Below are positions 17,562 to 18,461 of a stretch of 64,000 nt of DNA, one piece after another. The notes beneath the pieces are model-generated. The model was not told where the DNA came from. It did no database searches and saw nothing but the letters and a program-made list of their open reading frames with translations. Every line of letters starts with the position of its first letter. Position 1 is the stretch's first letter. Source of the stretch: an uncultured bacterium (GTDB lineage: Bacteria > Patescibacteriota > Minisyncoccia > UBA6257 > GWB1-50-10); contig CAVRNT010000001.1 in assembly GCA_963722655.1 (NCBI GenBank), positions 244,994 through 308,993 of the forward strand. The letters are read 5' to 3'. A program made the translations under genes and the position numbers.

Positions 17562-18038
17562 ATGGCTACTCGGAGCACAAAGGCATTATATAGCGCCGAG
17601 AACGTTGCTAAATACCTTATCTATCTCGCTTCACAGGATTTCGTGGGCGACAATAAGGAGCGGGAGGGCATAACGAATCTAAAACTTCAAAAGGTGCTTT
17701 ATTTTGTGCAGGCGTATTATCTTGCTAAACTCGGCAAGCCGCTTTTTAGTGGCGACATTGAGGCGTGGGGATTGGGACCCGTTGTGCCAGACATATACCA
17801 CAAATATAAATCTTTTGGGAGCAGGCCAATTATTAACAAAAAGGACGAATCAACCATTTCCGATGATGATAAAACAGTAATACAAAAGGTGTGGGATACA
17901 TTCGGGGGCTACTCCGCAAGACGCTTGGTAGATATTACTCACGCGCACACGCCTTGGAAAGATGCGAGCACTACACCAAGTAAGGTTATATCACATAAAG
18001 CATTAAGGGATTATTACGCCCCTCTACTGAACAAATAA
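17562..18038 (+). CDS. Panacea-domain (DUF4065) protein, SocA/GepA-like putative antitoxin
   Basis: ITNLKLQKVLYFVQAYYLAKLGKPLFSGDIEAWGLGPVVPDIYHKYKSFG matches the DUF4065/Panacea core (NLKLQKLLYyaQ...LF.eefeAWkyGPVvp.vY). Confidence 0.7.
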   Translation: MATRSTKALYSAENVAKYLIYLASQDFVGDNKEREGITNLKLQKVLYFVQAYYLAKLGKPLFSGDIEAWGLGPVVPDIYHKYKSFGSRPIINKKDESTISDDDKTVIQKVWDTFGGYSARRLVDITHAHTPWKDASTTPSKVISHKALRDYYAPLLNK

Positions 18039-18053
18039 AGTAAGCTGGGCAAT

Positions 18054-18461
18054 TTGATGGATGAATCTAAAACGCCCAGCAAGTTTGATTTACAATACGC
18101 CGAGTCAAAGGTGATTTTTGTTATATGTGATTGCTCTTTGAATAAGAGATATTCATTTTACGATTTGAACCGGCAACAAGCAGAGAACTTAATTTCTCGT
18201 CTCCGATACTTTGAAAAGATGACTTGGGCACAATGGGTAGGTCTTCAGCGCGAGAAAGGGTTAACAGTGGAACGACCAGAAAGCGACAGTTTTGTGATGA
18301 TTGATGAACAAAATACATCAGAGAGTAAAATATCTGGTGAAAAATACTATTTTCATTTTCGGGTTGAACAGACAGGGTTATTTCGTGTCTTCGGTTATCA
18401 GCGCGGACAGTTTTTTGCCATAACCCATATTGATAGAGGGGGTGTGATTCATCATTCTTAG
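18054..18461 (+). CDS. hypothetical protein, candidate toxin partner of the Panacea protein
   Basis: 135 aa, 15 nt downstream of the DUF4065 gene; the C-terminal ...YYFHFRVEQTGLFRVFGYQRGQFFAITHIDRGG weakly resembles the RelE/HigB-fold mRNA interferase core (..yRiff......i.ilh...). Confidence 0.45.
   Translation: MMDESKTPSKFDLQYAESKVIFVICDCSLNKRYSFYDLNRQQAENLISRLRYFEKMTWAQWVGLQREKGLTVERPESDSFVMIDEQNTSESKISGEKYYFHFRVEQTGLFRVFGYQRGQFFAITHIDRGGVIHHS

What the first reader, a model, noticed from the sequence alone, without database searches (positions are those of the whole stretch)
17562..18461. Panacea (DUF4065) antitoxin-like gene followed 15 nt later by a 135-aa candidate toxin, a possible new PanA-toxin pair
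The 158-aa protein matches the DUF4065/Panacea core almost residue for residue (NLKLQKVLYFVQ...LFSGDIEAWGLGPVVPDIYHKYKSFG). Panacea antitoxins are known to pair with very diverse toxins. The tightly coupled downstream ORF has no obvious family. Its C-terminus (YYFHFRVEQTGLFRVFGYQRGQFFAITHIDRGG) is vaguely RelE/HigB-like. It could be a new toxin partner for the hyperpromiscuous PanA domain.
Basis: partly seen in the sequence, partly recalled or inferred. Interest (0 to 1): 0.6.

Follow-up and report, generated by a model that had tools for sequence, protein, structure and literature searches.

The report
PanA antitoxin with RelE-fold toxin partner
This is a real two-gene toxin-antitoxin-like module (a Panacea-domain antitoxin plus a RelE-fold putative RNase) on a mobile island of a candidate-phyla-radiation bacterium, but the partner is a distant relative of the commonest, already catalogued Panacea partner family, so it is a new member rather than a new kind.

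Summary
A 158-aa Panacea (PF13274) protein at 17562-18038 is followed 15-18 nt later by a 134/135-aa ORF ending at 18461.

The pairing is not chance. In 35 of 37 related loci, all from Patescibacteria (CPR), a PanA homolog lies directly upstream. Nothing else in the flanks is conserved, and the two proteins co-diverge (Mantel r = 0.77).

"New toxin partner" is not supported. Profile-profile comparison links the CPR family to the protein next to PanA in Salmonella phage Emek (97.6%, E = 4.5e-12; 91.9% with an independent alignment). Kurata et al. 2022 list that protein in PanT cluster T1, a widely distributed cluster they predict to be an mRNase. The protein also matches the MAG6450 family below cutoff, and the BECR RNase domain of the Menshen effector NsnC.

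Most likely mechanism: a leaderless panA-panT operon, direct neutralisation by a standalone Panacea domain, and translation arrest by RNA cleavage. Toxicity is inferred only. The tested T1 members were non-toxic (two) or toxic but not neutralised (one).

The module sits beside a type III restriction-modification system on a 12-kb low-GC island at tRNA-Asn. Verdict: new member of a known kind, modest interest.

The parts
17526..17553 (+). Sigma-70-type promoter with an extended -10 element: TTGCTA, 16 nt, TG-n-TATAAT. The -10 ends 8 nt before the panA ATG, which implies a leaderless or near-leaderless mRNA.
   Evidence: Consensus scan gives 10 of 12 matches with TG before the -10. A TATAAT-like box lies about 6-8 nt before the PanA start in most homologous loci, with no room for a Shine-Dalgarno sequence. 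The function is inferred, not shown.
17562..18038 (+). panA: a 158-aa standalone Panacea/DUF4065 antitoxin-like protein with no HTH or other N-terminal domain.
   Evidence: PF13274 at E = 3.2e-25, covering the full model. NCBIfam SocA_antitoxin scores 85.9 bits, below the equivalog cutoff of 190. phrog_1281 matches at E = 1.1e-45. Homologs of 54-74% identity lie upstream of the partner gene in 35 of 37 loci.
18039..18056 (+). Short intergenic spacer between the panA stop and the probable panT ATG.
   Evidence: Read from the sequence. In many homologous loci this spacer holds an inverted repeat (gcaagg...ccttgc) just before the ATG. The repeat is not evident in the window copy.
18057..18461 (+). 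panT-like gene: a 134-aa RelE/BECR-fold putative endoribonuclease toxin (135 aa if the TTG at 18054 is used). Residues conserved family-wide: F22, W58, G69, E73, H101, R103, R111, D127, H134.
13509..17513 (+). Context: a type III restriction-modification system immediately upstream, Mod at 13509-15272 and Res at 15276-17513.
   Evidence: PADLOC MTase_III at E = 7e-81 and REase_III at E = 2.7e-15. Pfam N6_N4_Mtase and ResIII.
8036..20190 (.). Context: a ~12-kb low-GC (35-46%) island in a 57-61% GC genome. It abuts tRNA-Asn (7963-8035) and carries a large serine recombinase (8023-9669, minus strand).
   Evidence: Composition profiles. tRNA scan. Pfam Resolvase, Recombinase and Zn_ribbon_recom.

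Best explanation
This is a PanA-PanT type II toxin-antitoxin (or TA-like defence) module. The two genes are probably co-transcribed from an extended -10 promoter as a leaderless mRNA. The first product is a standalone Panacea-domain protein. By analogy with characterised standalone PanAs, it binds and neutralises the second product directly. The second product is a RelE/BECR-fold protein that most likely cleaves RNA, probably mRNA on the ribosome, and arrests translation when freed from PanA. It belongs to a Patescibacteria-specific clade of a wider family that is found only next to PanA genes wherever context was examined. That wider family is homologous to the PanT cluster T1 of Kurata et al. 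2022. The module rides on an integrated low-GC island next to a type III restriction-modification system. There it could stabilise the island or add an abortive-infection layer. Shown here: the gene pair, its conservation as a unit, the fold, and the homology to T1, MAG6450 and the NsnC C-terminal domain. Inferred: co-transcription, toxicity, RNase activity, direct neutralisation and biological role.
Against: No toxicity or neutralisation data exist for this clade. Among T1 members tested by Kurata et al., the Emek and E. coli MOD1 proteins were not toxic in E. coli. The C. cadaveris protein was toxic but its PanA failed to neutralise it. T1 is therefore not a validated canonical TA. No Pfam RelE/ParE model matches the protein. 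Foldseek hits to RelE-family structures are the right families but not significant, with best E = 0.27. The catalytic residues could not be superposed on a known active site with these tools. The protein is about 40 residues longer than canonical RelE toxins. It has an N-terminal extension and an inserted helical segment of unknown role.
Confidence: 0.72

Rival explanations
1. The pair is a trigger-dependent defence module rather than a classical addiction TA. The RelE-fold protein stays bound and inactive, and is released or activated only when the Panacea domain senses a phage or other cue, as in abortive infection.
For: Ernits et al. [quoted passage not shown] Two of three tested T1 members were non-toxic when expressed alone. 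The module lies next to a type III RM on a mobile island. Other copies sit beside methyltransferase/endonuclease genes. The related BECR domain is the effector of the Menshen antiphage system.
Against: No direct evidence. PADLOC does not recognise the pair as a defence system. No copy was found on IMG/VR viral contigs. Most other loci have housekeeping neighbours.
Confidence: 0.2
2. The downstream protein is a ParE-like gyrase poison rather than an RNase. The fold is the same but the target differs.
Confidence: 0.06
3. The downstream ORF is a non-toxic accessory protein, or the adjacency is coincidental, so the pair is not a functional unit.
For: Two T1 members were non-toxic in E. coli.
Against: Adjacency holds in 35 of 37 loci with unrelated flanks. 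It also holds in distant relatives and in phage and plasmid copies from E. coli, Salmonella, Pseudomonas and Ligilactobacillus. The two proteins co-diverge. Frameshifted or truncated toxin copies in L033-L036 are what one expects for a gene that is costly when unguarded.
Confidence: 0.02

Closest known systems
PanAT systems with PanT cluster T1 (Kurata et al. 2022, PNAS, PMC8832971), e.g. Salmonella phage vB_SemP_Emek YP_006560565.1/YP_006560566.1 and Mycoplasma agalactiae WP_013022262.1/WP_013022263.1
   Same: Both have a standalone PanA first, then a ~130-145-aa partner a few nucleotides downstream. The partners are homologous (hhalign 97.6% and 91.9%). They share the hallmark segments ...LTW.Q...R..G.T.E... 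and ...FR..GY....F.I..D....H. T1 is predicted to be an mRNase.
   Different: Only about 20% identity to the Emek type. The CPR clade and most of the wider family keep His101, which the Emek type replaces with Ala or Ser. The hosts are Patescibacteria. No CPR entry was found in the stored part of Dataset S1. Whether the authors' clustering would place this clade in T1 cannot be tested here.
RelE/ParE superfamily type II toxins (RelE, HigB, YafQ, YoeB)
   Different: No sequence-level match to any Pfam RelE/ParE family or PDB chain. The protein is about 40 residues longer. The antitoxin is Panacea, not RelB, HigA, DinJ or YefM.
PB-BECR1 domain of the Menshen effector NsnC (Li et al. 2025, NAR, PMC12065111)
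   Same: Sequence similarity to the NsnC C-terminal region at E = 7.7e-8. That domain is described as a YafQ-like BECR RNase with an H-R-H triad.
   Different: Here the domain is a free-standing protein with no inPIN N-terminal domain. No NsnA (ParB-DUF262) or NsnB (ABC ATPase) genes are adjacent.
NCBIfam NF046006 'MAG6450 family protein' (Mycoplasma agalactiae MAG6450)
   Same: The window protein and 8 of 10 distant family members match the whole 103-position model at E = 1e-4 to 3e-8. MAG6450 lies next to MAG6440, annotated 'putative prophage protein ps3'. That label also marks the PanA-position gene next to a family member in a Pseudomonas phage.
   Different: All scores (22-34 bits) fall below the curated cutoff of 40. 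This is a sister family, not a member.

Membership tests
PanA / Panacea (DUF4065, PF13274) antitoxin | Protein matches the Panacea domain model above the gathering threshold | tested here: met
   89.7 bits against a cutoff of 25.7, E = 3.2e-25, full model coverage
PanAT two-gene module (criteria of Kurata et al. 2022) | Gap of 100 nt or less, architecture conserved in at least 2 species, and no longer conserved operon | tested here: met
   The gap is 15-18 nt. The pair is present in 35 of 37 loci from many Patescibacteria. No third gene is conserved.
PanAT two-gene module | Toxin arrests growth and the cognate PanA neutralises it by forming a complex | not testable with these tools
   This needs expression and pull-down assays. 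Tested T1 relatives gave mixed results.
PanT cluster T1 (Kurata et al. 2022) | Homology to listed T1 members | tested here: met
   hhalign of A1 against Emek-type alignments gives 97.6% (E = 4.5e-12) and 91.9% (E = 6.8e-7). The A2 HMM scores YP_006560566.1 at 63.6 bits.
PanT cluster T1 (Kurata et al. 2022) | Placement in the same cluster by the authors' FlaGs clustering procedure | not testable with these tools
   The procedure and the full sequence set are not available. No Parcubacteria entry appears in the stored part of Dataset S1.
RelE/ParE toxin superfamily | RelE-type alpha/beta fold | tested here: met
RelE/ParE toxin superfamily | Match to a curated sequence family (Pfam ParE_toxin, HigB, YafQ or YoeB models) | tested here: not met
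   No Pfam hit at E up to 1. No PDB sequence hit.
RelE-type mRNA interferase | Catalytic residues positioned as in RelE, YoeB, YafQ or HigB, and ribosome-dependent mRNA cleavage | tested here: inconclusive
   H101, R103, R111, D127 and H134 are conserved. No structural superposition or assay was possible.
NCBIfam NF046006 MAG6450 family | Score at or above the curated cutoff of 40 bits | tested here: not met
   34.0 bits, E = 3.3e-8. Distant relatives score 22-32 bits.
Menshen (NsnABC) antiphage system | NsnA (ParB-DUF262) and NsnB (ABC ATPase) genes with a two-domain NsnC | tested here: not met
   Only the C-terminal domain of the NsnC model matches, positions 186-276 of 284. The neighbours are PanA and a type III RM.

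The most novel reading that the evidence does not exclude
The T1-type PanA/RelE-fold modules, including this CPR clade, may not be classical addiction TAs. They may instead be trigger-gated defence modules in which the standalone Panacea domain senses an invader and releases a BECR RNase. This His-retaining clade occurs in ultra-small episymbiotic bacteria, including the cultivated Minisyncoccus archaeiphilus. It could be the active, tractable representative that explains why the Emek-type members, which lack His101, were non-toxic.
Probability: 0.2. Interest if true: 0.5.

Novelty: new member of a known kind. Interest (0 to 1): 0.25.

Why it matters
The finding extends the commonest Panacea-toxin pairing into the Patescibacteria (CPR), including a cultivated species. 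It also gives that partner family a confident RelE/BECR fold assignment and a set of conserved candidate catalytic residues.

It links three annotations that are filed separately: PanT cluster T1, the NCBIfam MAG6450 family, and the PB-BECR1 domain of Menshen NsnC.

It exposes a gap in the literature. This widely distributed PanT cluster has never been validated as a toxin-antitoxin pair, and the non-toxic members that were tested lack a histidine that the rest of the family keeps.

None of this changes the current picture of Panacea systems. It is a useful annotation and a testable lead rather than a discovery.

Tried and rejected
- **tblastn against plasmids and phages:** searching with the 135-aa protein found nothing. 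The link to known systems came only through profiles.
- **Sequence search of the PDB:** a single-sequence search and a 65-sequence profile gave only chance-level hits.
- **Foldseek:** searches against the PDB and BFVD gave the right families but no significant E-values. The afdb50 library was not available.
- **The search for related loci with the diverse alignment A2:** this failed because no conserved stretch was available.
- **Second homolog search with A2:** it mostly re-listed close CPR relatives.
- **IMG/VR viral contigs:** a scan found no CPR-type copy.
- **Chance adjacency:** rejected on conservation.
- **Membership of Menshen or of the MAG6450 family:** rejected. Defining features were not met.
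- **Negative controls:** PanA neighbours in L. gasseri pHL20_1 and N. gonorrhoeae are unrelated to this family. This shows the profile does not hit any PanA neighbour indiscriminately.
- **Direct repeat AGGTTGCT x2 over the -35 element:** considered as an operator, but it is not conserved in other loci.

Full report
**Observation**

The two ORFs are present as described. A 158-aa ORF lies at 17562-18038 (+). A second ORF lies at 18054-18461 (+), 135 aa from a TTG start, 15 nt after the first stop. All homologs begin 'MD...', so the true start is probably the ATG at 18057. That gives 134 aa and an 18-nt gap.

The first protein matches Pfam PF13274 (SocA_Panacea) at E = 3.2e-25 over the whole model, residues 42-133, and has no other domain. 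It also matches the NCBIfam SocA model below its equivalog cutoff and phrog_1281. The second protein has no Pfam hit.

**Is the pairing real?**

A search of 5.8 billion proteins found 120 homologs of the second protein. They share 51-70% identity, are about 132 aa long, and the named sources are all Parcubacteria/CPR MAGs.

Contexts came from exact look-ups and a scan of one genome per GTDB species, giving 37 loci. In 35 of them a PanA homolog (54-74% identity) lies immediately upstream. The other two loci hold only C-terminal fragments of the second gene. Two further loci show the gene split across frames, which suggests decay.

An all-against-all comparison of flank ORFs found only the two module genes shared across loci. 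The exceptions were shadow ORFs inside the two genes, loci cut from the same contig, and one unexamined short (~73-aa) upstream ORF shared by 4 loci. So this is an autonomous two-gene unit inserted at many different sites.

Pairwise identities of the two proteins are correlated across 28 distinct pairs (r = 0.77, with 0 of 5000 Mantel permutations reaching it). The genes are therefore inherited and diverge together. The complete genome of cultivated Minisyncoccus archaeiphilus PMX.108 carries an intact pair.

**What is the second protein?**

An AlphaFold2 model built on a 41-sequence alignment is confident (mean pLDDT 85, pTM 0.81). Its order of elements is beta, alpha, alpha, a short beta, two short helices, then three strands.

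An exhaustive HMMER search of 1.84 billion cluster representatives found only 89 relatives at E of 0.001 or better, mostly 125-155 aa. Across 65 diverse members the conserved positions are F22, W58, G69, E73, H101 (60 of 65), R103 (62 of 65), R111 and D127 (65 of 65), and a C-terminal H134. His, Arg and Asp on the sheet plus a C-terminal His is the pattern of the RNase members of this fold (YoeB, YafQ, HigB), not of ParE. This reading rests on established knowledge of those families and is an inference, because I could not superpose the structures.

**Links to described families**

- **Menshen NsnC.** PADLOC's NsnC model matches residues 28-128 through its C-terminal part only, positions 186-276 of 284, at E = 7.7e-8. 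Li et al. 2025 (PMC12065111) describe that region as PB-BECR1, a YafQ-like BECR RNase domain with an H-R-H triad. There are no NsnA or NsnB genes here, so this is not a Menshen system.
- **MAG6450 family.** NCBIfam NF046006 matches at 34 bits, below its cutoff of 40. Eight of ten distant family members also match it below threshold over the whole model. In M. agalactiae PG2 the neighbouring gene MAG6440 is annotated 'putative prophage protein ps3'. That label also marks the PanA-position gene next to a family member in a Pseudomonas phage.
- **PanT cluster T1.** This is the decisive link. Dataset S1 of Kurata et al. 2022 (PMC8832971) lists an M. agalactiae pair and the Salmonella phage vB_SemP_Emek pair YP_006560565.1/YP_006560566.1 in PanT cluster T1. 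T1 is the first-listed cluster and spans Mollicutes, Firmicutes, Actinobacteria, Bacteroidetes, Proteobacteria and phages.

I fetched PanA loci from plasmids and phages. A profile of the wide family hits the gene directly after PanA on an E. coli plasmid and in phage Emek (63.9 and 63.6 bits, E about 4e-21). It also hits a Pseudomonas phage (66.2 bits) and a Ligilactobacillus plasmid (47.8 bits). It does not hit the unrelated PanA neighbours in L. gasseri or N. gonorrhoeae.

Profile-profile comparison of the CPR family with Emek-type proteins gives 97.6% probability (E = 4.5e-12) over 103 columns. With a template made only of three phage proteins that my own searches had not recruited, it still gives 91.9% (E = 6.8e-7).

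Three distant family members (22-26% identity to the window protein) also lie directly after PanA genes. The whole family is therefore a dedicated Panacea partner, and it is homologous to an already catalogued partner.

**What is known about T1**

SI Table S1 of Kurata et al. labels these proteins 'mRNase'. It reports the Emek and E. coli MOD1 members as not toxic in E. coli. It reports the C. cadaveris member as toxic but not neutralised by its PanA. T1 is widely distributed but has not been validated as a canonical TA.

The Emek-type proteins carry Ala or Ser at the position of the otherwise near-invariant His101. This may bear on their lack of toxicity, but that is speculation.

**Mechanism proposed**

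A sigma-70-type promoter with an extended -10 (TTGCTA, 16 nt, TG-n-TATAAT, 17526-17553) ends 8 nt before the panA ATG. Most homologous loci show a TATAAT-like box about 6-8 nt before the start codon, with no Shine-Dalgarno sequence. The operon is therefore probably transcribed as a leaderless mRNA.

PanA has no DNA-binding or accessory neutralising domain. Following Ernits et al. 2023 (PMC10440598), who showed direct neutralisation by standalone Panacea, direct binding is the likely mode here. The toxin most likely cleaves RNA and blocks translation.

Many loci have a small hairpin between the two genes, but the window copy lacks it. Toxicity, RNase activity, complex formation and co-transcription are all inferred, not shown.

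**Context**

SerRS places the host in the Patescibacteria. The closest named relatives are Candidatus Jorgensenbacteria at 65-69% identity.

The module lies near the right end of a ~12.2-kb low-GC island (35-46% GC against 57-61% for the genome). The island starts at tRNA-Asn (7963-8035). It carries a large serine recombinase (8023-9669), two unknown ORFs, and a type III restriction-modification system directly upstream of panA. Other copies also sit next to methyltransferase/endonuclease genes.

This fits either island stabilisation or a defence role. It keeps open the rival reading that the pair is a trigger-gated abortive-infection module. No copy was found on IMG/VR viral contigs.

**Verdict**

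The claim of a new Panacea partner is not supported. This is a divergent, CPR-specific clade of a partner family already listed by Kurata et al. (cluster T1), and PanA paired with RelE-fold toxins is known more generally (T14, T28, T59 and MqsR-like partners). It is a new member of a known kind, of modest interest. Its main value lies in the fold and active-site assignment for T1, the link to MAG6450 and PB-BECR1, and a cultivable host in which to test it.

Noticed in passing
window 7963-20190: A ~12.2-kb low-GC island (35-46% GC) in a 57-61% GC Patescibacteria genome. It is bounded on the left by tRNA-Asn (7963-8035) and on the right by a sharp GC jump at about 20170-20200. A large serine recombinase (8023-9669, minus strand; Resolvase, Recombinase, Zn ribbon and SHOCT domains) overlaps the tRNA 3' end by 13 nt.
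   Followed up: partly
window 13509-17513: A complete type III restriction-modification system directly upstream of panA: Mod of 587 aa and Res of 745 aa, separated by 3 nt. The Res stop is 48 nt before the panA ATG.
   Followed up: partly
window 17526-17562 and loci L003-L037: A TATAAT-like -10 box, often with an upstream TG, sits about 6-8 nt before the PanA start codon in most homologous loci. No Shine-Dalgarno sequence is present. This suggests a conserved leaderless transcript for this PanAT clade.
   Followed up: partly
loci L004-L006, L010, L011, L015, L017, L019, L021 and others, between the PanA stop and the toxin ATG: A conserved intergenic inverted repeat (TAG gcaagg tagagca ccttgt ct ATG) lies just before the toxin start. 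It could modulate toxin translation. It is absent from the window copy.
   Followed up: no
window 10907-11046: A tandem duplication of a 70-nt unit (89% identity) at the 5' end of, and upstream of, the unknown 395-aa ORF at 9772-10959 (minus strand).
   Followed up: no
window 9772-10959 (-), 11368-13320 (-), 19340-20038 (-): Three island ORFs (395, 650 and 232 aa) with no Pfam hit. The 232-aa ORF also has no NCBIfam or PADLOC hit. They could be further defence or mobility genes.
   Followed up: partly
loci L033, L034 (frameshifted), L035, L036 (C-terminal fragments without PanA): Decayed copies of the toxin gene occur in some Patescibacteria genomes. In L033 and L034 the PanA gene remains intact while the toxin is split across frames.
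   Followed up: partly
L042 (Salmonella phage Emek), L038 (E. coli plasmid pZ1323CEC0013_1-7), L043, L044: The Emek-type T1 PanT proteins carry Ala or Ser where 60 of 65 members of the wider family have His101. The Emek and E. coli MOD1 T1 members were reported non-toxic by Kurata et al.
   Followed up: partly
window 18625-18807 and 18858-19037 (+): Two small ORFs (60 and 59 aa) just downstream of the module. Their sequences are hydrophobic and look like transmembrane segments. Their function is unknown.
   Followed up: no
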